DNA of 64,000 nucleotides from Parachlamydiales bacterium (GTDB taxonomy: Bacteria; Chlamydiota; Chlamydiia; Chlamydiales; JABDDJ01). The notes beneath the pieces are model-generated. The model made no database searches, was not told the origin of the DNA, and saw only the letters and a list, made by a program, of their open reading frames with translations. Shown here piece after piece: positions 43,633-58,434 of the stretch. Both the position numbers and the translations under genes were made by a program. The DNA lies in assembly GCA_041671045.1 (NCBI GenBank), contig JBAZCF010000006.1:19290-83289 (forward strand), given 5' to 3'. Each line of letters opens with the position of its first letter. Position 1 is the stretch's first letter.

Positions 43633-44850
43633 TTAAAATAGGCTGCTTAATGTTTTTGTGTTTTTCTCTAAATTATATTCATCCTCTATTCGCTGCCGTC
43701 CTGATTGAACAATTTTCTGTTGCAGCTCAGCATTCTCGGAGAGATGCGCTATTGCATTCTGTAAACTAATAACATCTGAGGGGGCTACAAGGATTCCGTC
43801 AATCCCATTTCTGATCAGTTCCGGCGTGCCATTGATCCATGTGCTGATGCAAGGAATTTTCATGGCCATAGCCTCCATCAGAACAATAGGGATGCCTTCG
43901 GCAAACGTAGCCAGAACAAATAAATCTGCATGCTGCATATGTTTTAAAGTTTCATGATGGGATAAAGGCCCTTTGAAGCGTATTTCATCCACCACATCTA
44001 AGCGCATAGCAAGCTCCTCAAGTTCAGCCCTTTCAGGCCCGCTTCCTATCAAAGTCAGCTCAAAAAATTTTCCCTGTTCCTTAAGGTTTGCAATAGCTTG
44101 AATTAGGATAGAGAATCCCTTTACTGGAACTAATCGACCTACGGTAACAATTTGTTTTCTTGGGTTGTTGCTCTTTTCATGGGTTGAAGGCAAAGGAGTA
44201 ATTTTGCTCACGTCCACACCCATACGGACTATATGCAGCTTTTCCCATTCTGTGATTTTGAGATGCTTCAATATCTGGCTTTGAGAATAAAAGCTGATGC
44301 ACCGAATCCAATCGGCATCTTGAACCTTGATAGGCAGGCCTTCCATTGTCTCATCATAGAAGATATCCGGACCATGAATCGAAAGGGAAAGCTTAAAGGG
44401 TTGAAGGCGTTTTGCAATCATAGCCACCGTAGCAGCCACATTCCCGAAATAGGCATGTACTTGCTCGCTATTCTGAGCGCTAAACCAGCGTGCCAATAGC
44501 AGGGCTTCACCAAAATAGCCAAATAAGTATTTTATGCTCCGACGTGTTTGCCGTATATATTTCCATGTGAAGCTCAATGCTTGAAAAAAGCGTACAGGAT
44601 TGAAGATGAGGTATTGAAATAGAGCGTCAATGGCTGTAATGACACCCTTTTCTTTGATATAGAAAGTATTTTTTTCTTCTTCTCTGACTTCAATGCTTTT
44701 AGCCATCTCTTCGATATTGGAATTATTGATGGACGCCACCACAACTTTTTTACCCGCCTGGCGTAGAAAAGCAATTTCTTGCTGTATAAAGGTATGGGAT
44801 ACGGCAGGATAACAACTTATAACGTAAATGATAGTATTAGAATCTGACAC
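43633..44850 (-). CDS. Glycosyltransferase family 4 (GT-B, WcaL-like)
   Basis: GRLVPVKGF, LIGSGPERAELEE, and the EGIPIVLMEAMAMKIPCIST E-x7-E region. Confidence 0.8.
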   Translation of the reverse strand: MSDSNTIIYVISCYPAVSHTFIQQEIAFLRQAGKKVVVASINNSNIEEMAKSIEVREEEKNTFYIKEKGVITAIDALFQYLIFNPVRFFQALSFTWKYIRQTRRSIKYLFGYFGEALLLARWFSAQNSEQVHAYFGNVAATVAMIAKRLQPFKLSLSIHGPDIFYDETMEGLPIKVQDADWIRCISFYSQSQILKHLKITEWEKLHIVRMGVDVSKITPLPSTHEKSNNPRKQIVTVGRLVPVKGFSILIQAIANLKEQGKFFELTLIGSGPERAELEELAMRLDVVDEIRFKGPLSHHETLKHMQHADLFVLATFAEGIPIVLMEAMAMKIPCISTWINGTPELIRNGIDGILVAPSDVISLQNAIAHLSENAELQQKIVQSGRQRIEDEYNLEKNTKTLSSLF

Positions 44851-46282: not shown

Positions 46283-47556
46283 GAGTGCCCTTCCTTTGCT
46301 ATAAATTCATTATAGGTATCTAGGATATCATTCGCTTTAGCACTCCATGAAAAAGCTTTAGCTCTTTGACGCGCGCATTCACCCATTTTTAGCCTTCGAG
46401 AAGGATTGAAAGTTAATTCTTCCATAGCAGAACTGAAATCAGCCGCTAACGTTTGGGGATCAGTCGCCGATAAAAGGATTCCGCACGAAGAATCGGCATA
46501 TTCCCCTACACCCCCGTAGTTCACACCTACAATAGGCAACCCTGCAGCCATAGCTTCTAGGATGACCGCACCTCCAAAATCCTTGACAGAAGGGAAACAG
46601 AATATGTCCGCACTTTCATAGTGCGGCAACAACTGATTGTGGGGAACCCAGCCTGTAAATTGTACAAAGTCTTCTAAGTGCAACTTATGGACGAGAGCCT
46701 CTAGTTGTTTCCTTTCCGATCCATCCCCCACAATTGTCAGACAAATTTTCTCCGGCATTAGCTGAAGGGCATTGATAAGTATATCTACGCATTTAACAGG
46801 CTCCAAACGCCCCACAAATAAGGCGCGGCAACCGTTCTTTGCCTCTCGTCTAAGAGAGAAGTATTCATCATCGACTCCATTTTCTGAGAGTTTCACTAGA
46901 TTGCTTTCAGGGAAAATGACTTTAAGTGCTTGCAACGTATAATCTGAACCAACCCATACCACTTTGGAATTATGGTAGGTTGTTTTGTATCCCGGAAGAT
47001 ATTTGGCAAACCGTTTCAATGCCTGAAAACCTTGATGTTCTTTCTTTGCTACTTCAGAAAAGCCTGGGGGAAAAGGAATTCCCCCGTTCACCGGGCCCAG
47101 GAAAAAAGGGGTGGATTTACACACGGAAGCAATTTTCACTGGATAGCGTGGAATAATCGGTGTGAAGGCATGCACTAGATCAAAATTACCCCTCGCCACT
47201 GACTCTGAAAAATGTTTATACACAGCGTGGTTGAACTCAGCATAAATAGGATAAAGCAGTGTATGGAATAACGGCCAGCGTGTGGCGCCCCTTGTAAGGA
47301 AAGACTCCAAAAACCGGTAATAATAGGTAGAAGCCCTGCTTTCAGGGAAAAATACGATATCTGCATCAGGGTGCAGTTTAAGCAAGGCTTCTTTATTTCT
47401 ACCGTGTGTTGCGAGCGTGACATCGGCAACAGCGCCTAGCGCCCGGTATAATTTATAACCTAAAAAAGGGACAGAGGACATTTCAGGATGGCATTGTTCA
47501 ATGATTAATAAAACCTTCAACCTCCTTGAAGTATCGCCTCCTACCTTCTGTATCAT
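46270..47556 (-). CDS. Glycosyltransferase family 4 (GT-B)
   Basis: FVGRLEPVKCVDILI, IVGDGSERKQLE, and FCFPSVKDFGGAVILEAMAAGLPIVGVNYGG. Confidence 0.8.
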   Translation of the reverse strand: MIQKVGGDTSRRLKVLLIIEQCHPEMSSVPFLGYKLYRALGAVADVTLATHGRNKEALLKLHPDADIVFFPESRASTYYYRFLESFLTRGATRWPLFHTLLYPIYAEFNHAVYKHFSESVARGNFDLVHAFTPIIPRYPVKIASVCKSTPFFLGPVNGGIPFPPGFSEVAKKEHQGFQALKRFAKYLPGYKTTYHNSKVVWVGSDYTLQALKVIFPESNLVKLSENGVDDEYFSLRREAKNGCRALFVGRLEPVKCVDILINALQLMPEKICLTIVGDGSERKQLEALVHKLHLEDFVQFTGWVPHNQLLPHYESADIFCFPSVKDFGGAVILEAMAAGLPIVGVNYGGVGEYADSSCGILLSATDPQTLAADFSSAMEELTFNPSRRLKMGECARQRAKAFSWSAKANDILDTYNEFIAKEGHSCSS

Positions 47557-48512
47557 TTGTACTCAATGGGTTCTTGCAGTGACTTCCAGTAATACTTCAT
47601 CTGCCCGTATGCCATTGGCAGATGTATAAAATGGCTATGGATACCATAAAGAATGCTATTTTTTAATGAAGCTCCTTGGGATAAAGCCCTAAGGGATGTT
47701 CGTGATACTAACGCGATAATGCAGAGAAGCCAAAGGATTAACCAGAAGGGAGAGCGGCTTATAAAAATAATTAGAGTTGCAGTTACGAAAATCGCAGCCT
47801 TGATAATGTTTTTCAGTGCAGTCCTTGTCCATAGGTCTGTTCCGAGTTCCTTAGAGCGTGCTGCCACTGCGGCATAGGCCATACCTGTCCGTACATTCCT
47901 TAACCAATATTGCTTGAAAGAATCCATTTCCAAATCATGCCAAGCCATAACTTCCGGAAGTTTCCTTATTTTCCATTCCTTCATTACCATTCGCTGACAC
48001 ATTTCAGGCTCTTCCCCGGCATAAAGATACTCATCGTAGCCGCTGACAGTTTGCAATGCGGTTTTTCTTATCAGCGCATTTCCTCCACAATACTCTATCC
48101 CCTTGATATTCTGTGCATTATCTAAATCTGCTACACCTTGATAGTATGAACGATCGGGATATCTTTCCCTTGTTTCTCCGTACACTATAGCAATTTTTTC
48201 TTCTGCTTTGAGAATATCTATACTACTAAGAACCGTCTCCGGCACTATTTCAGAATCTCCATCGACGAAGAGGATCCACTCTCCTTTTGCAGCTTTCCAA
48301 CCTATATTACGCGCTATTGCCGCAGAAAATTTAGGACCGGGCACAGCAATGACTTTTGCCCCGGCTTTCTTAGCGATTTCTACGCTATTATCTTTTGAGT
48401 CGGAATCTACATAAATGCATTCACCAGCCTCCAAAGGGATTACAGATTTAAAACAATTTTCTAATCTGTCGGCTTCATTTCTGCCAATAATAACAATGCT
48501 TAATTCTTTCAT
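47553..48512 (-). CDS. Glycosyltransferase family 2 with C-terminal TM helices
   Basis: LSIVIIGRNEADRL, YVDSDSKDNS, and FVDGDSEI (DxD). Confidence 0.75.
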   Translation of the reverse strand: MKELSIVIIGRNEADRLENCFKSVIPLEAGECIYVDSDSKDNSVEIAKKAGAKVIAVPGPKFSAAIARNIGWKAAKGEWILFVDGDSEIVPETVLSSIDILKAEEKIAIVYGETRERYPDRSYYQGVADLDNAQNIKGIEYCGGNALIRKTALQTVSGYDEYLYAGEEPEMCQRMVMKEWKIRKLPEVMAWHDLEMDSFKQYWLRNVRTGMAYAAVAARSKELGTDLWTRTALKNIIKAAIFVTATLIIFISRSPFWLILWLLCIIALVSRTSLRALSQGASLKNSILYGIHSHFIHLPMAYGQMKYYWKSLQEPIEYK

Positions 48513-49096
48513 AGTTGAAACAGTGAGGGGAAAAGTTCTTGAAGTTTATTCCAGGGCAAATATTTTTTTTCTATAGGTTGTACCACAATAAGCACAGGTT
48601 CTTCTCCAGAGTGTCCAAAAGTAAGGCGCCGCTTTGTAGCTTCCCACCAATAGCGATAAGTAGAACCAAAACTATGTTTACCGTCAGAAAACCAGTATAA
48701 TGCTTCTTGAGTTTGATCCCCTTTTTTTAAAGAAACCAAACGAGCATCTCCATTAGCAATAGGAAAGGGCTCATCCTTTATGACATCCCAACCCCCGCCA
48801 TGGAAGCAATAGTAGGGATCATGCACAACATGTCTATTACGTGTTCCGTCAATGACCGTAATGAAATAAGGGACATCCGCTACTGTGTATACTCGCTTCA
48901 GCAAGTCGACACCCCCAAAGATCTTAGCTTCGAAAGCAGATAGCGGTACATTTTCACCCAGATAAGCAGGCCCATAAAGAGGTAACTTGCTTATCCTTGC
49001 GGCAGCGCTTTGAAGCGGCATGAATTGCCAGAGCAAGGCAATGCATATTGCAAGAGCCAAGGTGATATACAGCAATGTTTTGCCGCTAGACTTCAT
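48509..49096 (-). CDS. EpsI-like (DUF3485, exosortase-associated) protein
   Basis: 195 aa with an N-terminal anchor. The pattern L.R.Y....V...I....(x)..VHDPYYCFHGGGW...V.L....Q.ALYWF.DG...LIVVQP matches my recollection of the EpsI family core (HsPe.Clpg.GW ... YWy..g). Confidence 0.5.
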   Translation of the reverse strand: MKSSGKTLLYITLALAICIALLWQFMPLQSAAARISKLPLYGPAYLGENVPLSAFEAKIFGGVDLLKRVYTVADVPYFITVIDGTRNRHVVHDPYYCFHGGGWDVIKDEPFPIANGDARLVSLKKGDQTQEALYWFSDGKHSFGSTYRYWWEATKRRLTFGHSGEEPVLIVVQPIEKKYLPWNKLQELFPSLFQL

Positions 49097-49556
49097 TTCT
49101 TAGGCTCCTTATTTTTAATAAAGTAGCTAGAGACACTCCTAGAACTTTGCAAGAAATGGCAATTCCGAATGGCCATTCCACCATAAGATATGAGAAAATA
49201 GGCATCCAAAGAATCGAGCTGGAAATCCAGAGGGGCGACTCTTTACTCCAAGGAATCCAAGCAGCAATGGAAAATGCAAACCCTATGTAAGTTAGAGTAT
49301 TCACCGCTGTTAAAATACCTGCAATGACCATCACCAAAGCAAGTTCAGATGCTACCCAGCTCGTTGGTAACCGCAAAGCATATAGCGGTAATAACCATAG
49401 GATAAACGGAATCCAGTTGAATGCATCGTAAGGCGAAACAAACCATGCTTCAAAAAGGGACAATGATTCCCAGAGACAGAAAGTTATAATACTTAAATGC
49501 AGTAAGTTAAGATTACGGTGACCCATATCCCCAATTTTTTTTTGTGGAATCTTCAA
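49086..49556 (-). CDS. Small polytopic membrane protein (about 6 TM), first gene of the polysaccharide operon
   Basis: 156 aa, Trp-rich and hydrophobic. It overlaps the EpsI-like gene by 11 nt. It is too short for a canonical exosortase, and no Cys/Arg/His exosortase motifs were recognised. Confidence 0.5.
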   Translation of the reverse strand: MKIPQKKIGDMGHRNLNLLHLSIITFCLWESLSLFEAWFVSPYDAFNWIPFILWLLPLYALRLPTSWVASELALVMVIAGILTAVNTLTYIGFAFSIAAWIPWSKESPLWISSSILWMPIFSYLMVEWPFGIAISCKVLGVSLATLLKIRSLRNEV

Positions 49557-49652
49557 AAAATATTAATTCACTCTATATAAAATAATATGTTAATTATATA
49601 AAAAAAATTACACTTAAATTTAGAATCGAATAACCCTAACCGGAACATTTGT

Positions 49653-50114
49653 ATGCGTAAATTACCTTGGCTTTACTTAGGTCTTATTTTCGCCTTTACT
49701 GGCCTTTCTGCTGCATCCACAGCAATCGTCACCATCACTTTTATTGTGCAGTCTGTTAGGGATATTACATTTTCGGGCAATCCGGGCACTTTTACAGTAT
49801 CACCTGGAGGCGCTCCAGCAGTAGACACCTCCACAACATACTCGGTAGTTACGAATGAATCTAACCAGCGAATTTTTGCTGCCTTAAATACTAACATGCC
49901 TACCGGACTGACTTTACAGGTGAATTTACAAGCTCCGACAGGAGCCACCTCCGCAGGCGCCCAAACACTTTCAACGACATCCGTGGATTTAGTCACGGGA
50001 ATTTCTAATGCAAACCAAACCGGATTAACAGTAAGCTACAGTTTAGCAGCCACAGTAGCAGCTGCAACAGCCCCAAGTGCAACGCGTACTCTGACATATA
50101 CTATTGGTGATTAA
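49653..50114 (+). CDS. Secreted Thr/Ala-rich beta-protein, paralogue 1 of 3 (candidate fibre subunit)
   Basis: 153 aa with a signal peptide and no Cys. Shared blocks: ITFSGNPGTF, LNTNMPTGLTL, APTGATS, LSTT..DLVTGI, ATV, LTYTI. Confidence 0.7.
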   Translation: MRKLPWLYLGLIFAFTGLSAASTAIVTITFIVQSVRDITFSGNPGTFTVSPGGAPAVDTSTTYSVVTNESNQRIFAALNTNMPTGLTLQVNLQAPTGATSAGAQTLSTTSVDLVTGISNANQTGLTVSYSLAATVAAATAPSATRTLTYTIGD

Positions 50115-50584
50115 TGTTCGTTCTTAGGTTCTTGGCCCTGGTATTGCTAGTTCAAACAAAGCTATGGTCAGTCTCTGCAACAGCAAATGTGACTTTTACA
50201 GTCCCTACCATCAATGAGATTACTTTTTCCGGGAACCCGGCCACATTTACAATTAGTTCATTTACACCGGGTGTCCCTACGACTAATGCAACAAATAACT
50301 CTACAACGTGGACCCTATCGACCAATACCACAGCGGCCAAGGTCACTGCGAAATTGAACTCCGCAATGCCCACGGGACTTACCATGAGTGTTAATTTGGG
50401 AGCCCCCTCAGGAGCCACCAGTTCAGGAACCGTGCCGCTATCGACTACCGATTCCGATTTGGTAACAGGAATTACCAAACTCACAGCCTCTGCCTTGTCC
50501 GTAACATACACGCTGACAGCTACTGTCAGCGCAGCCCCTGCAGCTTCAACTTCACGGATCATCACTTATACTCTAGGTCCCTAA
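50114..50584 (+). CDS. Secreted Thr/Ala-rich beta-protein, paralogue 2 of 3
   Basis: 156 aa. The start overlaps the previous stop (TAATG). It carries the same conserved blocks (ITFSGNPATF, LNSAMPTGLTM, APSGATS, LSTTDSDLVTGI, ITYTL). Confidence 0.7.
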   Translation: MFVLRFLALVLLVQTKLWSVSATANVTFTVPTINEITFSGNPATFTISSFTPGVPTTNATNNSTTWTLSTNTTAAKVTAKLNSAMPTGLTMSVNLGAPSGATSSGTVPLSTTDSDLVTGITKLTASALSVTYTLTATVSAAPAASTSRIITYTLGP

Positions 50585-50585
50585 C

Positions 50586-51023
50586 ATGCTTTTCCGTTTT
50601 TTCTTATTACTAAATATCCTGAGCATCTTTTCAGCTCTTGAAGGCCTCCTAGATAGCATTGCTGTTTCGGGAAATCCCGGGACCTTTGTTTTTGCTGTGC
50701 CGGCGGCAGGCAGCCAGCCTGCTAATCTTGTGGATACTTCAACGACATATAGCGCTTCTACCTTATCCCTCGCGCGTAAAATCACCGGACAATTGAATAC
50801 CAACATGCCCACAGGCATGACCCTGGCCATCGAACTTCAAGCTCCTTTGATAGGAACCTCTCAAGGCAGTGTGACCATGTCTACCACTCCTGCAGATCTA
50901 ATTACCGGGATGATCCTATTGACCTTACAAAGCGGACTTCAAATTACTTACACCATGACCGCCACAGTACAGGCGTCACCTGTTACAAACAGTGTGGTTA
51001 CGGTAACATATACACTTCTGTAG
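50586..51023 (+). CDS. Secreted Thr-rich beta-protein, paralogue 3 of 3 (lacks the N-terminal VT.TF.V strand)
   Basis: 145 aa starting 1 nt after the previous stop. It carries the same blocks (VSGNPGTF, LNTNMPTGMTL, MSTTPADLITGM, VTYTLL). Confidence 0.7.
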   Translation: MLFRFFLLLNILSIFSALEGLLDSIAVSGNPGTFVFAVPAAGSQPANLVDTSTTYSASTLSLARKITGQLNTNMPTGMTLAIELQAPLIGTSQGSVTMSTTPADLITGMILLTLQSGLQITYTMTATVQASPVTNSVVTVTYTLL

Positions 51024-51043
51024 CGTGGTTTATGTATTTTGGC

Positions 51044-53815
51044 TTAAAGGACCATAGGTAGGATTTCTTTAGGTCTTGGCAGGACTTTTATTTCGATTTT
51101 TTCTGAGACCATTCTTTGAACAACTATTTCCAAAGTGTCGTTTTCCATGTAATGATCTAAAGGCACCTCATTAGACATTATTTTCATAGTCCATAAACCA
51201 GGGTGCAGATTGTCGAATTTAAAATGTCCTAAACAATTTGTAGTGGTTGAGAGGATTTCACCCGTTCCATTCCTTGAAAGGATGATACGCGTATTTGAAA
51301 GACCTTTAGCTTCAACCAAGCTCAACCACACGCCAGGCGAATGCCTTTGTGTAGAAGGATTCAGATTAAGGTTCTCCTCATAGTTATACATTTTGATATC
51401 TCCTTCCACTTGCCCTGCATAGGTAGTAGTGATATCATTGCATACTGTTCTGCCACCCATAACATTAACAGGTATATCACAAGGATTGGTTTGGAGCATT
51501 CTAGCAGGCAACATGCTGGTAGAAAGTGTATGTATGCCGGGGCAAAGATTGGAAAACCTGAAATTTCCACATTCGTCCGTTAAACGAGCGTCATCCCCCA
51601 GAGATACAACTGCATTGGATACAGGTTCATTAGTCATTTGGTCGTAAACAGTACCTTCAATGGAACCGAAATCAGTACGCCATTTGACAGGTGTTTTTGT
51701 AGGGATGGTATAGGAGGCAATAAATTTATATTCATCCCTACTGTCTTGATGCCTGCTAAAAAAACAGTCTAGGCGCACGCCAATGTTGTGCAGGTTGCTC
51801 AAAGTATGTGAAACACGTCCCATGGCATGCACATACCTTCCGTCATAACATTTCCCATTCAATTTGTCGCCATAGAATCTGTCGTTAATTGCTCTTGCAT
51901 AGATCTCTGCATAGGACAGATATTGGTACCGCCAAAGGAAGGCACCCCCCGCCGCATAACGCCACTGACGGGCATCATAAGGATTTGTATTTCCGCATTC
52001 ATAATGCAAAGTAAAAGAACGGACAGGATCTACTGTCATGTTGAAATCGAAATTATACCTTTGCAATGGTTTGCAAAAAGTGTCGGTCACATGATTTTTT
52101 TGTCCCCCCACCTCTGAGATACAAAATAGTGCGTACCTGCCGGTATTGAATGAATATTGGATACCACCCCAAGCCTGACTGAAATCGAAGTTACAAGGAT
52201 CGTAAGCATCCCTTCCGGTAAGCAAATTCCCCACGAGGGTAATTTGCGAACACGCATCATACCAGTACGATAGCTTAGCCGTGTAATCACGCCAGCGGGG
52301 TGCTGTTGTATCGCAATGGTTTAAATTCTGACATACACGATTAGTGGTGACTAAAAGTCTTGTAACCGCTGATAACCCAAGGTCCACCCCTGCAGAATAA
52401 TAGTCGGCATCATTGTAATAGCCATAAAATCCTTTGCCAGCATAGGTACGTGTGAAATAGCAAGAGGAATCCCTACCAAAAGTATTTTTAAAATCAATAT
52501 CGAAGCCTTTTCTATCCCCTTGATGTTTCTTTGTACTTGTATCATAAGCAAACTCCAAACCGAAAAAACGGCCCGGAGCAGGCGCCTCTTCGCAGCGGAT
52601 ACTGACAATATTTCCTTGGGGAGTATCCACTTGCGAACGTCTGATATAATTTAAGGAGATATTTCCAAAAGGCGAGTATGCATATTGTAGGTATGCGGCC
52701 CCTTCCTCAAACTGGCAGTTATGATTTTGCCTATTCTGCCGATAGAAGCTACCGTAGGACAGACGGTCAAAAGTAAAGTCAATGCCTATTCCACGACCAT
52801 AACCCCATCTTTCTGTCAATGGAGTCAGATAGTAGTTGGTATCACCCAAGACGAACTCGAACTGCGGATCTATAATACCCACAAATAAGCGTTGATATTG
52901 ATTGTAGAGTGTGGTGTGGGCCTCGCTGGGAATAAGGAATTCGTAGTCTATCTCCCTCAGTTGATCCTCATCGATAAACCCTCTTCCATATAACTCAGTG
53001 CCAACGACCAACTCCCCTTCCTGGCCTGTCGCGAACATTCTGAAAAAGCCTGATACGTTTACCCAGGGGTCAGGAATGCTATCCATGCCACAGGGCAGCA
53101 CATCTACCACTGAACAATATGAATACAATTCTTCATCTGTGCAAGCATCCAAAACAATGATCTGCAGTACTCTGCTTTTTGCTCTGCAAGTCGTGGGGAG
53201 GACCCCGACTTGTCCGTAAAAAATAGTATTTTCACCGGGAACAAGATCATATTCTTCACAATCGAGAACAGCCCAAGCATCATTATCGATGATGGTTTTA
53301 ATCCTGATAGGTACCGTGATATTACCTGCGTTATGGGTGCTTAAGGTAATGGGAAAGCGCTGTCCTTCAGCTACTAACGAGGGCGTCTTCTCCACTTCAA
53401 AAGACAGCTCTCTTTGCCCTTGGACATCCAAAATAACCGAATATGGTTTGGAGTCGATAGAGAAAACGACTTCATGCAAACCAGGAAGCGATCCTTTAGC
53501 GACAGATATGGGAACAAGAAGCATATGCGAACTATCAGGAGAGAGTGGAATGAGCTTATCACATTCCACTAAAGATTCGCATTCAGGAGGTAATTGCAGG
53601 TCGAAAGGTATCAGTACATCTTTTTTTCCCGGATTGCTGATATTAATGATAATAACAGCAGCTTCTCCGGGCGTAACTTCTAGGGATGGGGGAGTGATCA
53701 GAGTACACTCAGCAGCGTACGCTAATGAAAATTGTAGTATCGCTATTCCTATCAATCCATATTTAATGAATGGATAGAGACAGCCTTTCTGCAAATAATT
53801 TACCATTCCCAACAT
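51044..53815 (-). CDS. Cysteine-rich outer-membrane protein: N-terminal Ig-like (CARDB/NEW3-like) domains, central beta-barrel-like region, two C-terminal CarboxypepD_reg-like domains
   Basis: 923 aa with a signal peptide and ~25 Cys (counted by eye). N-terminal LEVTPGEAAVIIINISNPG is followed by an aromatic/Gly-rich alternating region typical of OM barrels. C-terminal motifs are IEGTVYD..TNEPVSNAVVSL...TDECGNFRFSNLCPGIHTL and GEILSTTTNCLGHFKFDNLHPGLWTM. Confidence 0.65.
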   Translation of the reverse strand: MLGMVNYLQKGCLYPFIKYGLIGIAILQFSLAYAAECTLITPPSLEVTPGEAAVIIINISNPGKKDVLIPFDLQLPPECESLVECDKLIPLSPDSSHMLLVPISVAKGSLPGLHEVVFSIDSKPYSVILDVQGQRELSFEVEKTPSLVAEGQRFPITLSTHNAGNITVPIRIKTIIDNDAWAVLDCEEYDLVPGENTIFYGQVGVLPTTCRAKSRVLQIIVLDACTDEELYSYCSVVDVLPCGMDSIPDPWVNVSGFFRMFATGQEGELVVGTELYGRGFIDEDQLREIDYEFLIPSEAHTTLYNQYQRLFVGIIDPQFEFVLGDTNYYLTPLTERWGYGRGIGIDFTFDRLSYGSFYRQNRQNHNCQFEEGAAYLQYAYSPFGNISLNYIRRSQVDTPQGNIVSIRCEEAPAPGRFFGLEFAYDTSTKKHQGDRKGFDIDFKNTFGRDSSCYFTRTYAGKGFYGYYNDADYYSAGVDLGLSAVTRLLVTTNRVCQNLNHCDTTAPRWRDYTAKLSYWYDACSQITLVGNLLTGRDAYDPCNFDFSQAWGGIQYSFNTGRYALFCISEVGGQKNHVTDTFCKPLQRYNFDFNMTVDPVRSFTLHYECGNTNPYDARQWRYAAGGAFLWRYQYLSYAEIYARAINDRFYGDKLNGKCYDGRYVHAMGRVSHTLSNLHNIGVRLDCFFSRHQDSRDEYKFIASYTIPTKTPVKWRTDFGSIEGTVYDQMTNEPVSNAVVSLGDDARLTDECGNFRFSNLCPGIHTLSTSMLPARMLQTNPCDIPVNVMGGRTVCNDITTTYAGQVEGDIKMYNYEENLNLNPSTQRHSPGVWLSLVEAKGLSNTRIILSRNGTGEILSTTTNCLGHFKFDNLHPGLWTMKIMSNEVPLDHYMENDTLEIVVQRMVSEKIEIKVLPRPKEILPMVL

Positions 53816-54545
53816 CTAGTAGTAGTAACCCGTAGTATTCCCCTTCAGATATCTCTTCTAGGGGAAGGGAAAACCGCACTGAATTATAGGGAAGAATATT
53901 TTGTGGAGCGGCCTGCATTGTTTTTACTAATTGTCCCTTGAGATCGTATAGTTTTAGAGTAGGATGAGGATAAAGATGGCAGTTCCCATTATTTTCAACA
54001 TCCATGTTTAACGTATGGCCGGTATCAGTCTTTAATAGATTCGAGTCTAATAATTTTAAAGACTTTTCTAAAGCGCCTACATTTACGATGATCTGGTGGG
54101 CGTAACGTACTTTAATTTGAATGGAAACGGCGTTTTCAGCTTGTAAGGTTGTCACAGGTTCTGTCGGTTCGATAAGTATCGCGCTAGAGTATGAACCCTT
54201 AAGCTGAGGATTATTCGGAACACGTACTGTGTAATAAACATCCTTAGTTTGCCCTGGCTCAATTCTTACGCTTTGCTGGTGGAGTTCTAACCATTTAGCA
54301 TTCGAACGTTCTAGAGTATTAGGCTCTTCAAAGAAATTCTCACCGTTAGAATTATATTTATAGTCAGCTTGGTTGATGTGAACTTCTTCGGGGACATCCT
54401 TATTATTTGTCATCGTTAATTTTACATTGAAGATCTCACCCGGTTTTGCAACAAGAATTTTGGTAAGATCGCCATTAAATACCACAGCTTCAATGTTCGA
54501 AATAGTTAGTAGGAAAATAAGTAGAAACTTAATTCTTAGCGCCAC
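53763..54545 (-). CDS. Periplasmic/secreted protein with two Ig-like beta-sandwich domains (candidate chaperone-like partner)
   Basis: 260 aa with a signal peptide. The first domain reads AKPGEIFNVKLTMTNNKD...RIEPGQTKDVYYTVRVPNNP..GSYSSAILIEP and the second LNMDVENNGNCHLYP. It overlaps the start of the 923-aa gene (translational coupling). Confidence 0.6.
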   Translation of the reverse strand: MALRIKFLLIFLLTISNIEAVVFNGDLTKILVAKPGEIFNVKLTMTNNKDVPEEVHINQADYKYNSNGENFFEEPNTLERSNAKWLELHQQSVRIEPGQTKDVYYTVRVPNNPQLKGSYSSAILIEPTEPVTTLQAENAVSIQIKVRYAHQIIVNVGALEKSLKLLDSNLLKTDTGHTLNMDVENNGNCHLYPHPTLKLYDLKGQLVKTMQAAPQNILPYNSVRFSLPLEEISEGEYYGLLLLDVGNGKLFAERLSLSIH

Positions 54546-54650: not shown

Positions 54651-55511
54651 TCAACTGAAATAACTGCGCAGAAGAGACCATCTAAACTCTTTATTTTCCG
54701 CTGCATAACGAGTGATCTCTTCAGGAGCATATCCCGCAAAAAGAATGATCTCTTTATCGGTAAGCCTGCAGGCAACATGATTAGCCTGCGACGTCAATTG
54801 CTTAAGGTTTTTCAGACATCTATCCAGTTGGCTTTGCCTATAAATTCTGCGTATGCAAGCCGCAATTATCATAAGCCAAGGTAATAGATTTATGCCGACC
54901 ATCCAAAGCGGCCATACGCCTGTTCCTGCTGTTAATGAAATGACCATGCTTACAAAAATGAGAAGTGCAAAAATAGCAGTCTCTTTGGATGATTCGGCCA
55001 AGGGCCCTATAAATCGTTGAAATGCACTTTGAGAAGTCATATAGGCTAGTATTTCTTCAAACTTGGGCTCTTCAAATGCCATTCGAGCTACATGCACACC
55101 TTCGTGCGCTAGTAAGAAAGAACGCTTGTAATAACCTAAGAATATTTCCTTCTTTTTAAAGCTACGCCGTAATTGGAATATCGCTCCGATAGGAGAATCT
55201 TCCGCTACTCGGAAAATCCATGCGCAACCGCCATGCCAGGGGGCTAACTGATGATTGCTGAAAAATAAAGGGGTCCAAAGAGGGGCGATGCCGAAGAGTG
55301 GACGTGTGACTTGCCACGCTTCTTCAGTTAAGGGCTGGTCTTCCGCTTCCATTACTTCCGGAGGAATAATTGAACCGTGATCTTTAGATAGTATCGTCCT
55401 TAAATGTAGGCAATAATCTACTCTTTTATAATAGTCAGCTTCTTCTTCTTCAGGTCCGGGAAATAAGCCTAAACTGTTATACTCCAATAATTTATCATTA
55501 ATTAATTCCAT
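54651..55511 (-). CDS. Hypothetical membrane protein with HExxH motif (possible zinc metallopeptidase)
   Basis: 286 aa. LLAHEGVHVARMAFEEPKFEEILAY is followed by two TM helices (AIFALLIFVSMVISL, LLPWLMIIAACI). Confidence 0.4.
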   Translation of the reverse strand: MELINDKLLEYNSLGLFPGPEEEEADYYKRVDYCLHLRTILSKDHGSIIPPEVMEAEDQPLTEEAWQVTRPLFGIAPLWTPLFFSNHQLAPWHGGCAWIFRVAEDSPIGAIFQLRRSFKKKEIFLGYYKRSFLLAHEGVHVARMAFEEPKFEEILAYMTSQSAFQRFIGPLAESSKETAIFALLIFVSMVISLTAGTGVWPLWMVGINLLPWLMIIAACIRRIYRQSQLDRCLKNLKQLTSQANHVACRLTDKEIILFAGYAPEEITRYAAENKEFRWSLLRSYFS

Positions 55512-55598: not shown

Positions 55599-57236
55599 AT
55601 GTTATCGGATGATTACGAGGAGTTCACCGACGCGCAACGACGCATCTTGGAGCGTTACGTTACGAATACGCATAGCCATATTTTTGCTTTGCGCAATCTT
55701 CCCGAAGTCATAAAAGGAGCTCTTTTCTCCCGTTACTCACGCTCTAATTTAGGCTTGCGTTCCTTGCTATTGAAGGAGTTCATTGGAAATGAAGATGAAG
55801 CCCATTTCTCTGAAATTGCAGGACAACCTCAAAATTATAGTACTGAAAGTCAACAAGAAGCTATCCAGAAAGCCCAGAATTTCTATGACCGAATCCTGGA
55901 CGGCTACGGCGATGACTCCATTGGCGAACTCGGTGGAGCACATATTGCCATAGAAAATATTTCCATGCTCGCTGCAAAGGCTATTGAAGACTGCAGAATT
56001 GGCGGCTCCCCCTTAGAGAAGTCCACCCGCTATGTCTACTTTGACCAGAAAGTGAATGGTGAATACCTTTTCTACCACGAACCTATCCTAATGACCTCCG
56101 CCTTCAGAGATGCCTATATCTCCACCTGTAATCACCTATTTGAAACTTATAGCGCACTCATCCCCCCTCTGACGCAGACTTTTGAAAAAACATTTCTGAA
56201 AGACCCGGCCATCTCCGCTACCGCTTACAAAGCTGCTCTGCGCGCCAAGGTCCTAGACTGCTTAAGAGGTCTTTTACCGGCGTCCACCCTAACAAACATG
56301 GGTGTGTTTGGCAACGGCCGTTTCTATGAAGGGCTGCTGCATAAAATGCATTGCTATACTCTCACCGAAATGCAAGACATCGGCCGCCGCATGCATGAGG
56401 AGCTTACAAAAGAAATACCTTCTTTCGTCCGCCGCTCTTCCCCCTCGCACCACACTCATACCAATTACAGTTCTTTCTATGAGAACATGCTCAATGATCT
56501 CCATCAAACAGCCTTCCTTTTTGCAGACGCAGCCGACCGCTCCATGACTCCCGGTGTACGCATGCTTGACTATGACAAGGAAGGCCCCCTCAATGTAGCA
56601 GCAGCCTTATTATTCCCGCACTGCAATAAAGGCTTGGGAGAGCTGCGCAAACTATGCCACGAAATGTCCGAAGAAGATATCGCACGCATTTTAGACGCTG
56701 CCGCAACAAGCAGGGACAACCGACGCCAGAAATCTCCGCGCGCATTAGAGCATGCAACCTTTACCTTCGAAATCATCGGTGACTACGGCTCTTACAGAGA
56801 TCTTCACCGCCACCGCATCCTGACACAAGAAAAGCAAATGCTTACTTGCGACTACGGCTTCTATATACCGCCGGAGATCGAAGGCAGCGCGCTGGAAGAC
56901 GATTACAACGAGGCCATGTTCCGTGCAAAAGAAGCCTACGATATGATTGCCGTTGAGTTTCCTGAAGAAGCCCAATACGTGGTCCCTATGGGCTATCATT
57001 TACGTTGGTATTTCAATGTTAATTTGCGGGCCCTGCAATGGCTCTGCGAGCTACGCTCATCTCCCGCCGGACACCCAACCTATCGCTTCATAGCTCAAGA
57101 GATGGCAAGGCAAGTATGCGAGATATGTCCTGCCTTTGAACGGTTCTTTAAATTTGTCGACTATGAAGGCTATCAAATGGGCAGATTAGGACAAGAGCAA
57201 CGAAAAATAGAAAAACAACATTTATTAGATGCATAA
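55599..57236 (+). CDS. thyX: FAD-dependent thymidylate synthase ThyX, long chlamydial-type form
   Basis: 545 aa with ALFSRYSRS and a ThyX-type motif region (YRDLHRHRILTQEKQ). As I recall, this size matches the ~530-aa chlamydial ThyX. Confidence 0.75.
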   Translation: MLSDDYEEFTDAQRRILERYVTNTHSHIFALRNLPEVIKGALFSRYSRSNLGLRSLLLKEFIGNEDEAHFSEIAGQPQNYSTESQQEAIQKAQNFYDRILDGYGDDSIGELGGAHIAIENISMLAAKAIEDCRIGGSPLEKSTRYVYFDQKVNGEYLFYHEPILMTSAFRDAYISTCNHLFETYSALIPPLTQTFEKTFLKDPAISATAYKAALRAKVLDCLRGLLPASTLTNMGVFGNGRFYEGLLHKMHCYTLTEMQDIGRRMHEELTKEIPSFVRRSSPSHHTHTNYSSFYENMLNDLHQTAFLFADAADRSMTPGVRMLDYDKEGPLNVAAALLFPHCNKGLGELRKLCHEMSEEDIARILDAAATSRDNRRQKSPRALEHATFTFEIIGDYGSYRDLHRHRILTQEKQMLTCDYGFYIPPEIEGSALEDDYNEAMFRAKEAYDMIAVEFPEEAQYVVPMGYHLRWYFNVNLRALQWLCELRSSPAGHPTYRFIAQEMARQVCEICPAFERFFKFVDYEGYQMGRLGQEQRKIEKQHLLDA

Positions 57237-58434
57237 TTGGGCAAAATTTCTAGGCGGTATATTGCTTGTCGCCGGAACGACTATCGGCGCTGCCATGTTA
57301 GCATTGCCCGTATCCGCAGGTGTAGCAGGATTCATTCCCTCCTTAGTTCTTTTTATCTGTTTTTGGCTGTATATGACCTATACAGCCTTGCTGTTTCTTG
57401 AAGTGAACACCTGGTCAGGCCAAAGAACCAATCTGCTTACTATGGCCAAAATGACCTTAGGCAGACCAGGAGAAGCTATCAGCTGGACGGCTTATCTTTT
57501 TCTTCTCTATTCTTTGCTCACAGCCTATATTGCCGGTAGTAGCGCCATCATCAGCGATCTGTTAACCAGCACTTTCAATATCCCTCCACTAGGTGCTTGG
57601 TGCGGTATTCCCCTAGTACTTTTGCTGGCCTACCTACTATTAAGAGGGACGGCACACGTAGACTATTGGAACCGCTTCCTAATGATTGGTTTAGCTGTCA
57701 GCTATTCCGCAATGTTAATAATGCTTTCCCCTTATGTTGAGACTGAAAAGCTTATCCGATCCGACTGGCCGACTGCTTTTTCCGTCGTCTCTGTCGTAGC
57801 TACTGCCTATGGGTTCCATATCATTATCCCTAGCCTCTACAGCTATATGCATGGAGACATCAAAATCCTTAAATGGACCTTATTAATAGGCAGCTTCATC
57901 CCTCTCGTCATCTATGCCCTCTGGCAAATGATCGCATTAGGCATCATACCATTTGAAGGGGCTAACGGACTATTACAAGGATATCAAAAAGGGGCTAACG
58001 GCGCGACGTTACTAGCCAATGCTATCAATACCCCTGTATTAAGCCTTATCGCACAACTATTCAGTTTCTTTGCCATTGTCACCTCTTTTATTGGGGTCGC
58101 TTTAGCTCTATGCGACTTCCTCGCCGACGGATTTAAATTACAACGTACACATACGAATAACCTTATGTTAGTGTGCTTGGTTTTCATCCCCCCCTTCCTC
58201 ATCGCCATCACTTATGCGCGCGCATTCCTTACAGCGCTGGAGATTTCAGGCGCTTATGGCGTAGTTTTCCTTCTAGGTCTTATGCCCGCCCTTATGGTAT
58301 GGAGAGGTAGATACATACAAAAGAGATTCGAAGGGTATGCCGCCCCGGGCGGAAAAATTACCTTGATCGCTGCTATGCTATTCTCTTTTCTTGTGATAGG
58401 ATTAGAAATAGCCAAATCACTTTCCCTTCTGTAA
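57229..58434 (+). CDS. tyrP: Aromatic amino acid (tyrosine/tryptophan) permease, HAAAP family (TyrP/Mtr-like)
   Basis: 401 aa with 11 predicted TM helices. The N-terminal [21 protein letters not shown] is the hallmark of TyrP/Mtr/TnaB transporters. Confidence 0.75.

What the first reader, a model, noticed from the sequence alone, without database searches (positions are those of the whole stretch)
49653..54545. Candidate chaperone-usher-like surface-fibre module: three tandem subunit paralogues facing a two-Ig-domain periplasmic protein and a 923-aa outer-membrane barrel
**Seen in the sequence**
- Three back-to-back genes (153, 156 and 145 aa; stop/start overlap or 1-nt gap) encode signal-peptide-bearing, Cys-free, Thr/Ser/Ala-rich proteins.
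- They share the blocks (I/V)(T/A)(F/V)SGNP(G/A)TF, LN(T/S)xMPTG(L/M)T, AP.G(A)TS.G, STT..DL(V/I)TG and (L/I/V)TYT(I/L).
- Convergent with them is a translationally coupled pair. One is a 260-aa secreted protein made of two Ig-like sandwiches. The other is a 923-aa protein with two N-terminal Ig-like domains, a central barrel-like region and two C-terminal beta-sandwich (CarboxypepD_reg-like) domains.

**Established knowledge**
- Chaperone-usher systems combine ~150-aa subunits, a ~250-aa two-Ig-domain chaperone and an ~850-aa usher organised as NTD, barrel, CTD1 and CTD2.

**Inference**
- The gene sizes, count and domain order mimic that logic.
- No motif matches PapD chaperones, FimD/PapC ushers, or SCPU/Csu subunits (which carry Cys pairs).
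- It could therefore be an analogous, undescribed fibre or surface-layer assembly system.
- It is divergently promoted from the polysaccharide operon across a 96-bp AT-rich region.
Basis: partly seen in the sequence, partly recalled or inferred. Interest (0 to 1): 0.8.

Follow-up and report, generated by a model that had tools for sequence, protein, structure and literature searches.

The report
Undescribed chaperone-usher-like surface fibre module
Five genes in this environmental chlamydia look like a previously undescribed pilus-building machine: an outer-membrane pore, a periplasmic helper protein and three small fibre subunits. The same gene set recurs in many unrelated Gram-negative phyla.

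Summary
All five ORFs, the shared motifs, the Cys-free subunits and the overlapping 260/923-aa pair are present.

**The parts**
- **923-aa protein:** the AlphaFold2 model (pLDDT 88) has two Ig-like domains, about 26 barrel strands and two C-terminal beta-sandwiches. Its ten best PDB fold matches are all FimD/PapC ushers (E 4e-14 to 1e-11).
- **Subunit S1:** the model (pLDDT 91) best matches chaperone-usher pilins and other donor-strand fibres, but only weakly (TM 0.36-0.48).
- **260-aa protein:** a remote homologue of the Gram-positive WxL-interacting protein (PDB 9i25/9i1y, E 8e-10), without its membrane anchor.

**Conservation**
- Subunit(s), then the ~270-aa gene, then the ~930-aa gene recur in 26 other loci fetched for carrying a relative of the 923-aa protein, from many diderm lineages.
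- At least 1,529 clusters (50% identity) of the large protein exist.
- 21 other loci each carry one subunit gene (one each) that lacks the N-terminal strand. Here S3 fills that role.

**Limits**
- Pfam, NCBIfam and profile-profile tests find no sequence link to classical ushers, PapD chaperones or fimbrial subunits.
- I found no description in the literature.

**Verdict:** a sequence-unrelated, widespread variant of chaperone-usher assembly. Polymerisation by donor-strand exchange is inferred, not shown.

The parts
49653..50114 (+). S1: class-A subunit, 153 aa. Signal peptide about aa 1-20; N-terminal extension about aa 21-35 (AST AIVTITFIV QSV; nt 49713-49757); then a 7-strand beta-sandwich.
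   Evidence: ORF. AF2 model pLDDT 90.9, with aa 14-35 not assigned to a strand. Foldseek top hits are CfaB, FimA/F/G, CsuA/B, PapA pilins and archaeal cannulae. The family has 158 clusters, all 'hypothetical', with no Pfam domain.
50114..50584 (+). S2: class-A subunit paralogue, 156 aa, with an N-terminal extension (about aa 20-33, VSATANVTFTVPTI; nt 50171-50212).
   Evidence: It is 46% identical to S1.
50586..51023 (+). S3: class-A-like subunit, 145 aa, that lacks the N-terminal extension. The mature protein starts at about LLDSIAVSGNPG. Candidate first-incorporated (tip) subunit.
   Evidence: Alignment. It is the only one of 114 class-A sequences with 9 rather than 19-33 residues between the signal-peptide core and the conserved Gly. 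Its orthologue in the chlamydial relative L034 lacks the segment too.
51044..53815 (-). BIG: 923-aa usher-like outer-membrane protein (whole gene).
   Evidence: AF2 pLDDT 88.3. Foldseek ranks 1-10 are FimD/PapC ushers, E 3.7e-14 to 1.4e-11. The family has at least 1,529 50%-identity clusters at E<=1e-30.
53096..53710 (-). BIG aa 36-240: two N-terminal Ig-like (NPCBM_assoc/FixG_C-type) domains. They are presumed periplasmic and are the candidate docking site for MID-subunit complexes.
   Evidence: DSSP. NPCBM_assoc is found in 35 of 50 family members and FixG_C in 37 of 50. There is weak profile similarity to MID domain 1 (75% probability over 63 columns).
51680..53065 (-). BIG aa 251-712: predicted outer-membrane beta-barrel of about 24-26 strands. 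It contains the family's most conserved motif, LGDxxYxLSPLTExxxYGRG (aa 322-343).
   Evidence: 26 consecutive hairpin-connected strands of mean length 12.7 aa. The segment is 17.7% aromatic. Porin_4 and OMP_b-brl are hit weakly in 7 and 4 of 50 members. The profile hits OmpG weakly. Invariant columns are listed.
51077..51667 (-). BIG aa 717-913: two C-terminal transthyretin/CarboxypepD_reg-type beta-sandwich domains, in the position of usher CTD1 and CTD2.
   Evidence: Pfam CarboxypepD_reg E 3.6e-12, present in 50 of 50 members. DSSP.
53763..54545 (-). MID: 260-aa secreted two-Ig-domain protein, homologous to WxLIP (DUF916 + DUF3324) but without its C-terminal transmembrane helix. Candidate periplasmic chaperone. 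Its ORF overlaps BIG.
   Evidence: The family profile hits PDB 9i25_C and 9i1y_A (EfmWxLIP1) at E 8e-10 over both domains. WxLIP_PGBD is hit in 6 of 18 members and WxLIP_HBD in 2 of 18. It lies directly upstream of BIG in 26 of 27 loci.
49557..49652 (.). 96-bp AT-rich spacer between S1 and the divergent polysaccharide/EpsI-like operon. Presumed promoter region for S1-S3.
   Evidence: Sequence. No sigma-70 consensus site was found there, so the promoter function is unverified.

Best explanation
The five genes encode a chaperone-usher-like machine that assembles a thin surface fibre on the outer membrane of this Parachlamydiales bacterium. Almost all steps below are inferred from fold, homology and gene content.

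1. S1, S2 and S3 are exported by Sec. Signal peptides are seen in the sequences.
2. In the periplasm each subunit is bound by MID, a soluble two-Ig-domain protein. By analogy with its homologue WxLIP, MID lends a beta-strand that completes the subunit's beta-sandwich.
3. MID-subunit complexes dock on the periplasmic Ig-like domains of BIG.
4. The roughly 13-residue N-terminal extension of an incoming S1 or S2 subunit has alternating hydrophobic residues. It displaces the MID strand from the previous subunit (donor-strand exchange). The growing polymer is threaded outward through BIG's 24-26-strand barrel.
5. S3 has no N-terminal extension and so cannot donate a strand. It would enter first and cap the distal tip. 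In most other phyla a separate subunit class that also lacks the N-terminal strand (class B) plays this part.

The module is built from protein families with no detectable sequence relationship to classical ushers, PapD chaperones or fimbrial subunits. It is therefore a separate lineage, or an extremely diverged one, of the same mechanical solution.
For: **BIG, shown by prediction**
- The model has pLDDT 88.3 with the order Ig, Ig, ~26-strand barrel, beta-sandwich, beta-sandwich.
- Foldseek ranks 1-10 are all FimD or PapC, at E 3.7e-14 to 1.4e-11 over 770-830 aligned columns. The next barrel proteins (TonB-dependent receptors, OccK porins) come only at about 1e-6.

**Subunit S1, shown by prediction**
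- The model has pLDDT 90.9, and the post-signal-peptide segment aa 21-35 is not assigned to a strand.
- Most of its top 50 PDB matches are chaperone-usher pilins (CfaB, FimA/F/G/H, CsuA/B, PapA) or other donor-strand fibres (archaeal cannulae, Ena), with probabilities of about 0.9-1.0.

**MID, shown by sequence**
- The family profile matches the solved EfmWxLIP1 structure at E 8e-10 across both domains.
- MID has a signal peptide but ends right after domain 2, with no membrane helix.
- For WxLIP, AlphaFold2 complexes predict a hairpin strand that inserts parallel to a WxL strand and completes its sandwich (PMC10599100).

**Gene conservation, shown**
- MID lies directly upstream of BIG in 26 of 27 loci.
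- One to four class-A subunit genes are present in 22 loci.
- Exactly one class-B subunit gene is present in each of 21 loci.

**N-terminal strand, shown**
- Class-A subunits carry a conserved N-terminal segment, consensus T-Q-T-V-T-x-x-V.
- Class B lacks it: the median distance from the signal-peptide core to the conserved Gly is 10 residues, against 24 in class A.
- S3 is the single class-A-like sequence of 114 that lacks it, and its chlamydial orthologue lacks it as well.
- One strand-less subunit per locus is what a donor-strand-exchange fibre with a defined tip predicts. This follows from established knowledge of Fim and Pap tip adhesins.

**Envelope location**
- All carriers named in the records are diderm lineages.
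- The chlamydial BIG orthologues have 22-26 cysteines, against a median of 4 elsewhere. This fits the known cysteine-rich, disulfide-cross-linked chlamydial outer-membrane proteins.
Against: - **No sequence homology to classical chaperone-usher parts.** Pfam Usher, PapD_N/C, Fimbrial, SCPU and DUF4402 are never hit in 50 BIG, 18 MID and 34+10 subunit sequences. hhalign against E. coli K-12 ushers, chaperones and pilins gives probabilities of 11.6%, 6.4% and 27.5%.
- **Modest fold scores.** For S1 no hit reaches E <= 1e-3 and TM is 0.36-0.48. For BIG, TM is 0.20-0.31 at rmsd about 20 A, so the match is to the domain order and barrel class, not a tight superposition.
- **No plug domain seen.** No 80-residue plug domain is evident in the secondary-structure string.
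- **The N-terminal part differs.** BIG has two Ig-like domains there, unlike the usher N-terminal domain.
- **Key steps untested.** Strand donation by MID and by the N-terminal extension rests on analogy.
- **WxLIP's partners are not known to polymerise.** They are WxL proteins, described as cell-wall-bound rather than as fibres.
- **One relative lacks subunits nearby.** L003 keeps MID and BIG but has an RHS-repeat gene where the subunit genes lie in the window.
Confidence: 0.6

Rival explanations
1. A dedicated secretion or surface-display system without polymerisation. MID escorts the small Ig-fold proteins through the periplasm. BIG exports them, or anchors them on the cell surface as monomers or small complexes. 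This would be a diderm counterpart of the Gram-positive WxL/WxLIP cell-surface complexes, used for adhesion or polysaccharide binding.
For: - MID is homologous to WxLIP. WxLIP's partners are described as wall-bound surface proteins, not fibres (PMC10599100, PMC9772566).
- The fold match of S1 to pilins is only moderate.
- The module sits next to a polysaccharide operon in the window.
Against: - The subunits show no WxL motifs or Pfam WxL hits; mature S1 contains no tryptophan at all.
- The conserved alternating-hydrophobic N-terminal extension in class A, and its absence from exactly one subunit gene per locus, has no obvious role in a monomer-display model.
- BIG's best structural matches are fibre-extruding ushers.
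- The neighbouring polysaccharide genes are not conserved in the other loci.
Confidence: 0.22
2. An extremely diverged but true member of the classical chaperone-usher superfamily. BIG, MID and the subunits would descend from usher, PapD-like chaperone and pilin ancestors, with the sequence signal erased.
For: - The same three-part logic and the same order of barrel and C-terminal domains. FimD and PapC are the top fold hits and pilins are the top hits for S1.
- MID has two Ig-like domains, as PapD does.
Against: - Profile-profile comparisons are negative for all three parts, and Pfam is negative in every member scanned.
- MID has significant homology to a different family, WxLIP.
- BIG's N-terminal region consists of two NPCBM_assoc-type Ig domains, unlike the usher N-terminal domain.
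- The C-terminal domains belong to the CarboxypepD_reg family, not PapC_C.
Confidence: 0.12
3. A solute or polymer uptake (or export) channel with accessory binding proteins. BIG would be a large porin decorated with carbohydrate-binding-like Ig domains. The small proteins and MID would be periplasmic or surface binding factors.
For: - Weak Porin_4, OMP_b-brl and OmpG similarities in the barrel.
- NPCBM_assoc-type and CarboxypepD_reg-type domains occur in glycan-active proteins and SusC-type transporters.
- A polysaccharide operon lies next door.
Against: - No TonB box, plug or any transporter family hit.
- Ushers outrank every porin and TonB-dependent receptor by more than four orders of magnitude in E-value.
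- Multiple tandem paralogous ~150-aa subunits with pilin-like folds are not a feature of known uptake loci.
- No glycan-degrading enzymes are conserved in the neighbourhoods.
Confidence: 0.05

Closest known systems
Classical chaperone-usher pili (type 1 Fim, P pili Pap; Pfam Usher PF00577, PapD_N/PapD_C, Fimbrial PF00419)
   Same: - The gene logic matches: several ~150-aa secreted subunits, a ~25-kDa two-Ig-domain periplasmic protein and an ~850-920-aa outer-membrane protein.
- BIG's predicted order of large barrel followed by two beta-sandwich domains gives FimD and PapC as its best PDB fold matches.
- The subunit fold is nearest to FimA/F/G, CfaB and PapA.
- One subunit type per locus lacks the N-terminal strand. 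In Fim and Pap pili it is the tip adhesin that lacks this extension (established knowledge).
   Different: - There is no detectable sequence homology for any part.
- The subunits are Cys-free, whereas classical pilins carry a conserved Cys pair (compare the invariant C44 and C84).
- BIG has two NPCBM_assoc-type Ig domains instead of the usher N-terminal domain, and CarboxypepD_reg-type instead of PapC_C-type C-terminal domains.
- No plug domain was recognisable.
- In most loci the gene order is subunits, chaperone-like gene, usher-like gene, with the strand-less subunit directly before the chaperone-like gene.
Archaic (sigma) chaperone-usher pili: Csu (Acinetobacter), CupE (Pseudomonas), SCPU spore-coat systems
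   Same: - Both are phylogenetically widespread and environmental.
- Both have thin-fibre-type small subunits. CsuA/B appears among the fold hits for S1 (7zl4_B, 6fq0_D).
   Different: - Archaic systems still use PF00577 ushers, PapD-family chaperones and SCPU subunits with cysteines.
- None of these families is hit here.
Gram-positive WxL gene clusters (Csc): WxL proteins plus WxLIP (DUF916 + DUF3324 + transmembrane helix), e.g. E. faecium EfmWxLIP1, PDB 9i25/9i1y
   Same: - MID is a sequence homologue of WxLIP across both Ig-like domains (E 8e-10).
- In both cases the gene is clustered with two or more small secreted beta-rich proteins.
- WxLIP is predicted to complete its partner's beta-sandwich with a donated strand running parallel to a partner strand (PMC10599100). 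That is the geometry of chaperone donor-strand complementation.
   Different: - MID lacks the C-terminal transmembrane helix (260 aa, against 337-365 aa).
- Its partners are not WxL-domain proteins: no WxL motifs and no Pfam hit.
- The module contains a ~920-aa outer-membrane barrel protein and occurs in diderm bacteria.
- WxL clusters have no usher-like component and are not known to form fibres.
Chaperone-free donor-strand fibres (TasA, Ena endospore appendages, archaeal cannulae, threads, bundling pili)
   Same: - The subunits are small beta-sandwiches with a terminal donor strand.
- Cannulae (9h8b), the Hyper2 tube (9bab) and Ena (8pdz, 7a02) appear among the S1 fold hits.
   Different: - Those systems have no dedicated outer-membrane pore or two-Ig-domain partner.
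- They occur in monoderm bacteria or archaea.

Membership tests
Classical chaperone-usher pathway: usher (PF00577 / PapC_N / PapC_C) | Sequence membership in the Usher family | tested here: not met
   No Usher, PapC_N or PapC_C hit at E<=1 for BIG, nor at E<=0.1 in 50 family members. hhalign against six E. coli K-12 ushers gives 11.6% probability. The PDB sequence-profile search returns no usher.
Classical chaperone-usher pathway: usher | Architecture: large (24-strand) outer-membrane barrel followed by two periplasmic beta-sandwich C-terminal domains | tested here: met
   The AF2 model has 26 strands at aa 251-712, then sandwiches at 717-815 and 830-913. FimD and PapC take Foldseek ranks 1-10, E 3.7e-14 to 1.4e-11. 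The exact strand count (24 or 26) is unresolved.
Classical chaperone-usher pathway: usher | Plug domain inserted in the barrel, and an N-terminal domain that binds chaperone-subunit complexes | tested here: inconclusive
   No ~80-aa beta-sandwich insertion is visible in the DSSP string. There is only a 57-aa insertion (aa 281-337) carrying the most conserved motif. The N-terminal region is two Ig-like domains, not the usher N-terminal fold.
Classical chaperone-usher pathway: PapD-like chaperone (PF00345 / PF02753) | Sequence membership; conserved Arg8/Lys112 cleft; G1 donor strand | tested here: not met
   No PapD_N or PapD_C hit in 18 MID members. hhalign against eight E. coli chaperones gives 6.4% probability. 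The cleft residues and donor strand could not be examined without a complex model.
Classical chaperone-usher pathway: PapD-like chaperone | Soluble periplasmic protein of about 25 kDa with two Ig-like domains | tested here: met
   MID has a signal peptide and is 260 aa with no membrane helix. The two Ig-like domains are inferred from homology to the solved WxLIP structure.
Classical chaperone-usher pathway: pilin subunits (PF00419 Fimbrial, PF05229 SCPU, PF14352 DUF4402) | Sequence membership; conserved disulfide | tested here: not met
   None of these families is hit in 34 class-A-type and 10 class-B sequences. hhalign against 19 E. coli pilins aligns only the signal peptides. S1-S3 have no cysteine.
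Classical chaperone-usher pathway: pilin subunits | Ig-like pilin fold with an N-terminal donor-strand extension that is absent from the tip subunit | tested here: inconclusive
   The fold hits are dominated by pilins but are weak (TM 0.36-0.48, E >= 2e-3). The N-terminal extension is conserved in class A and missing from S3 and class B. No multimer model could be made to show strand exchange.
WxL cluster / WxLIP (PF06030 WxLIP_PGBD + PF11797 WxLIP_HBD) | Tandem DUF916 and DUF3324 Ig-like domains | tested here: met
   The MID family profile matches EfmWxLIP1 (9i25_C, 9i1y_A) at E 8e-10, covering residues 34-251 of the chain. WxLIP_PGBD is hit in 6 of 18 members and WxLIP_HBD in 2 of 18, mostly below Pfam's gathering score. 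This is remote homology, not family membership by Pfam's cut-off.
WxL cluster / WxLIP | C-terminal transmembrane helix anchoring WxLIP in the cytoplasmic membrane | tested here: not met
   MID and all 17 aligned homologues end within a few residues of the second domain, or in one case with a polar tail. WxLIPs are 337-365 aa with a 22-residue transmembrane helix (PMC10599100).
WxL cluster / WxLIP | Partner proteins carry a WxL domain with two Trp-x-Leu motifs; the host is a Gram-positive bacterium | tested here: not met
   No WxL Pfam hit among the subunits. Mature S1 has no Trp. All named carriers are diderm lineages, and the module includes an outer-membrane barrel.

The most novel reading that the evidence does not exclude
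This would be a third, sequence-independent lineage of chaperone-usher-type pilus machines, alongside the classical and archaic ones.
- It is spread across many diderm lineages: Chlamydiota, Desulfobacterota, Bacteriovoracaceae, Zixibacteria, Armatimonadota, Bacteroidota, Gammaproteobacteria, and by the subunit hits also Verrucomicrobiota, Gemmatimonadota and Poribacteria.
- Its chaperone shares ancestry with the Gram-positive WxLIP proteins.
- If so, WxL/WxLIP clusters and this module would be the monoderm and diderm versions of one ancient donor-strand system.
- The window would then encode a donor-strand pilus machine in a chlamydia, which I found described nowhere.
Probability: 0.45. Interest if true: 0.85.

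Novelty: new variant of a known kind. Interest (0 to 1): 0.78.

Why it matters
**A possibly overlooked adhesin class**
- Chaperone-usher pili are among the best-understood bacterial adhesins. To my knowledge all known systems are recognised through one usher family (PF00577).
- A second machine with the same mechanics but unrelated sequences would be invisible to Pfam or NCBIfam-based annotation; every member seen here is labelled hypothetical or by a generic domain name.
- Such a machine could account for unexplained fibres in environmental Gram-negative bacteria.
- At least 1,529 clusters of the large protein (50% identity) suggest it is common.

**A link to Gram-positive surface biology**
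- The homology of the chaperone-like protein to WxLIP connects the module to the Gram-positive WxL surface clusters, whose mechanism is still unclear.
- It suggests a testable idea for both systems: strand donation by a two-Ig-domain partner.

**Relevance to chlamydiae**
- For chlamydiae, whose surface structures and host-attachment factors are few and hard to study, it nominates a concrete candidate adhesive organelle.

**Experiments are feasible**
- Cultured carriers exist: Emticicia aquatilis CGMCC 1.15958 and Tenacibaculum gallaicum DSM 18841.

Tried and rejected
**Searches that found no known family**
- Pfam and NCBIfam scans of the five proteins and their neighbours gave no family for the subunits and only generic Ig or CarboxypepD_reg domains for BIG.
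- Single-sequence PDB searches of BIG and MID found nothing useful. Only the MID family profile found WxLIP.
- Subunit profiles against PDB sequences returned only spurious scFv and armadillo hits.

**Tests for classical chaperone-usher homology, all negative**
- I fetched seven E. coli K-12 fimbrial operons and built usher, chaperone and pilin profiles (A6-A8).
- hhalign against these profiles was negative for all three parts.

**Searches inside and around the window**
- Looked for a class-B subunit, or extra copies of any part, elsewhere in the 64-kb window with --max hmmsearch on six-frame segments. None was found.
- Asked whether the 161-aa gene next to BIG in the relative L034 is the missing class-B subunit. 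It is an unrelated membrane protein.
- Asked whether the 1,521-aa gene after BIG in L003 is a giant subunit. It is an RHS-repeat protein.
- Asked whether the neighbouring polysaccharide/EpsI-like genes belong to the module. They are not conserved in other loci.

**Analyses that were not informative**
- The odd/even hydrophobicity of the predicted barrel strands did not discriminate them from Ig strands.

**Literature**
- Eight full-text searches (WxLIP, DUF916 + usher, donor strand + WxL, usher-like + AlphaFold, COG1470, chaperone-usher in PVC, PDB codes) found no description of this module.

- Inspection of model coordinates, which the tools do not expose.


Full report
**1. What is in the window**

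One search confirms three tandem ORFs on the + strand: S1 49653-50114 (153 aa), S2 50114-50584 (156 aa) and S3 50586-51023 (145 aa). Converging on them from the - strand are BIG 51044-53815 (923 aa) and, upstream of it and overlapping by 53 nt, MID 53763-54545 (260 aa; GTG start with an AAGGTG upstream).

S1-S3 are mutual homologues (phmmer E 1e-24 to 1e-32; 46% identity).

BIG is 100% identical to a protein of a Parachlamydiales MAG that is annotated only as 'carboxypeptidase-like regulatory domain-containing protein'. S1 is annotated 'hypothetical protein' in the same source.

The 96-bp spacer to the divergent operon is AT-rich but holds no sigma-70 consensus match.

**2. The module is conserved and widespread**

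The word-indexed search found only six BIG relatives. An exhaustive profile search found 16,553 representatives at E<=1e-3 and 1,529 at E<=1e-30. Nearly all of the 150 best listed are full-length, 860-1,260 aa.

A scan of species-representative genomes returned 23 loci. The named lineages are:
- Zixibacteria
- Armatimonadetes
- Desulfobacterota / Deltaproteobacteria
- Bacteriovoracaceae
- Ca. Thiodiazotropha
- Emticicia (three species)
- Tenacibaculum gallaicum
- another Bacteroidota genome

I called ORFs in all loci and searched them with phmmer, iterated HMMs and BLAST clustering. The results were:
- BIG in 27 loci.
- A MID homologue directly upstream of BIG in 26. The exception, L016, is cut at its 5' end.
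- One to four S1-like 'class A' subunit genes in 22.
- A fourth conserved family of ~170-aa secreted proteins, 'class B', with one copy in each of 21 loci.

The usual order is class A (one or two genes), class B, MID, BIG on one strand. In Bacteroidota, class B follows BIG.

A sigma-54 activator is adjacent in 12 loci.

Subunit relatives (158 clusters, all 'hypothetical', none with a Pfam domain) also come from Poribacteria, Verrucomicrobiales, Krumholzibacteriia and Gemmatimonadales. No other neighbouring gene family is as widely conserved. The adjacent polysaccharide genes in the window are therefore not part of the module.

Two chlamydial relatives keep the window's synteny of Trp/Tyr permease, ThyX, a ~287-aa gene, MID and BIG.
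- L034 also keeps the three convergent subunit genes.
- L003 has an RHS-repeat gene in their place.

**3. The large protein**

An AlphaFold2 model was built on 80 family members (A5). It has mean pLDDT 88.3 and this layout:
- a signal peptide
- two Ig-like domains (aa 36-131 and 137-240)
- 26 consecutive hairpin-linked strands of mean length 12.7 residues (aa 251-712)
- two beta-sandwiches (aa 717-815 and 830-913)

Foldseek against the PDB puts FimD and PapC ushers at ranks 1-10 (E 3.7e-14 to 1.4e-11, 770-830 aligned columns). Other barrel proteins, the TonB-dependent receptors and OccK porins, reach only about 1e-6. TM-scores are low (0.20-0.31). The match is therefore to barrel class and domain order, not a tight superposition.

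The central segment has the composition of an outer-membrane barrel:
- It is 17.7% aromatic.
- Seven of 50 members weakly hit Porin_4 and four hit OMP_b-brl.
- The profile weakly hits OmpG.

No member hits the Pfam Usher family. hhalign against six E. coli ushers is negative (11.6% probability).

A classical plug domain is not evident. The family's most conserved motif, LGDxxYxLSPLTExxxYGRG, lies in a 57-residue insertion after the second barrel strand. I could not inspect coordinates.

The chlamydial orthologues carry 22-26 cysteines against a median of 4 elsewhere. This fits the known cysteine-rich chlamydial outer-membrane complex, a point from established knowledge.

**4. The 260-aa protein**

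Single-sequence searches gave only a sub-threshold DUF916 (WxLIP_PGBD) hit. Across 18 family members, 6 hit WxLIP_PGBD, 2 hit WxLIP_HBD and none hit PapD_N or PapD_C.

The family profile matches the solved structures of E. faecium WxLIP1 (9i25_C, 9i1y_A) at E 8e-10. The match covers residues 34-251 of the chain, that is, both Ig-like domains. hhalign against eight E. coli PapD-family chaperones is negative (6.4%).

WxLIPs are Gram-positive proteins of 337-365 aa with a C-terminal membrane helix, encoded next to two or more WxL proteins. AlphaFold2 complexes predict that a WxLIP hairpin becomes a strand that runs parallel to a WxL strand and completes its sandwich (PMC10599100).

MID lacks the membrane helix, so it should be soluble in the periplasm. 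A parallel inserted strand is also the geometry of chaperone-to-subunit donor-strand complementation in Pap and Fim systems (established knowledge). The WxLIP paper itself never uses the word 'chaperone'.

**5. The subunits**

An S1 model built on 114 sequences has pLDDT 90.9 and seven strands. The stretch after the signal peptide (aa 21-35) is not assigned to any strand.

Its PDB fold matches are weak: best E 2.4e-3, TM 0.36-0.48. They are nevertheless dominated by chaperone-usher pilins (CfaB, FimA/F/G/H, CsuA/B, PapA) and by other donor-strand fibres (archaeal cannulae, the Hyper2 tube, Ena).

Pfam, NCBIfam, PDB-sequence and hhalign tests against fimbrial families are all negative.

The informative comparative signal is at the N-terminus:
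- Class-A subunits carry a conserved segment with alternating hydrophobic residues, consensus T-Q-T-V-T-x-x-V, before the first core strand.
- In 113 of 114 class-A sequences, 19-33 residues separate the signal-peptide core from the conserved glycine.
- The single exception, with 9 residues, is the window's S3.
- Class-B subunits, one per locus, also start directly at the first core strand (median 10 residues).
- The window has no class-B gene.
- The S3 orthologue in the chlamydial relative L034 lacks the segment too.

A fibre grown by donor-strand exchange needs one kind of subunit that accepts a strand but does not donate one, namely the first one in, at the tip. The pattern seen here is what that model predicts.

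**6. Interpretation**

The best-supported reading (about 0.6) is a chaperone-usher-like fibre machine:
- S1 and S2 are polymerising subunits.
- S3 is the strand-less tip subunit.
- MID is the periplasmic strand-donating chaperone.
- BIG is the outer-membrane assembly pore.

What is shown: gene content, conservation, signal peptides, predicted folds and MID-WxLIP homology.

What is inferred: strand donation, polymerisation, order of assembly and surface exposure.

The main rival (about 0.2) is export or surface display of the small proteins without polymerisation, as a diderm analogue of WxL surface complexes. A true but very diverged membership of the classical chaperone-usher superfamily (about 0.1) cannot be excluded by sequence methods. 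An uptake channel is unlikely.

**7. Novelty**

None of the four protein families has a Pfam or NCBIfam model. All public names are 'hypothetical', 'COG1470 family' or 'carboxypeptidase-like regulatory domain-containing'. Eight full-text searches found no description.

I rate it a new variant of a known kind. It has the mechanics of the chaperone-usher pathway, is built from unrelated or unrecognisably diverged families, and has an unexpected evolutionary link to Gram-positive WxLIP.

The corrections are that the module is not PVC-specific, that the 260-aa protein has a known remote relative, and that the canonical system has a fourth component, which S3 replaces here.

Noticed in passing
window 48509-49556 (- strand): Directly across the spacer from S1 lie two overlapping genes. 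One is a 156-aa multi-pass membrane protein (49086-49556). The other is a 195-aa protein (48509-49096) that matches DUF3485/EpsI and the C-terminal domains of exosortases XrtO, XrtD and XrtN (E 6e-8 to 2e-5). It could be a split or reduced exosortase-like pair. Downstream are GT2, GT1 and Wzy_C (O-antigen-ligase-like) genes (47553-48512, 46270-47556, 44837-46282). No PEP-CTERM-type tail is present on S1-S3.
   Followed up: partly
window 54651-55511 (- strand): A 286-aa protein with no family hit. It has no signal peptide, a HEGVH (HExxH-like) motif and hydrophobic segments in its C-terminal half. It is conserved immediately upstream of MID in all three chlamydial contigs examined (window; L003 6316-7179; L034 2975-3841) but absent from the non-chlamydial loci. 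It may be a lineage-specific accessory gene or may simply be syntenic.
   Followed up: partly
window 51044-53815 (BIG) versus homologues: The four chlamydial-lineage BIG proteins have 22-26 cysteines, 12 of them in the barrel of the window's copy. The median in 74 other representatives is 4. The fibre subunits have none. This is consistent with adaptation to the disulfide-cross-linked chlamydial outer-membrane complex.
   Followed up: yes
L003 10975-15537: In the closest relative (BIG 70% identical) the three subunit genes are not downstream of BIG. A gene of more than 1,521 aa for an RHS-repeat/DUF6531 protein lies there instead. That organism may keep its subunit genes elsewhere, or the module may be decaying.
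   Followed up: partly
On the far side of that regulator from the module lies an extra pair of subunit-like genes on opposite strands (~169 and ~180-190 aa). A ~457-aa protein family that includes this regulator recurs in 12 loci (11 after discounting L002, the same sequence as L001). This suggests regulated expression.
   Followed up: partly
window 55599-57236 (+ strand): A 545-aa ThyX (Thy1) protein with two Thy1 matches, about twice the usual ThyX length. It is followed by an overlapping Trp/Tyr permease gene (57229-58434). The same pair is syntenic in L003 and L034.
   Followed up: no
window 49673-49996 and 50152-50565 (- strand): Long antisense ORFs (107 and 137 aa) run through S1 and S2. 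They are most likely a by-product of the Thr/Ser/Ala/Gly-rich, low-stop composition of the subunit genes rather than real genes.
   Followed up: no
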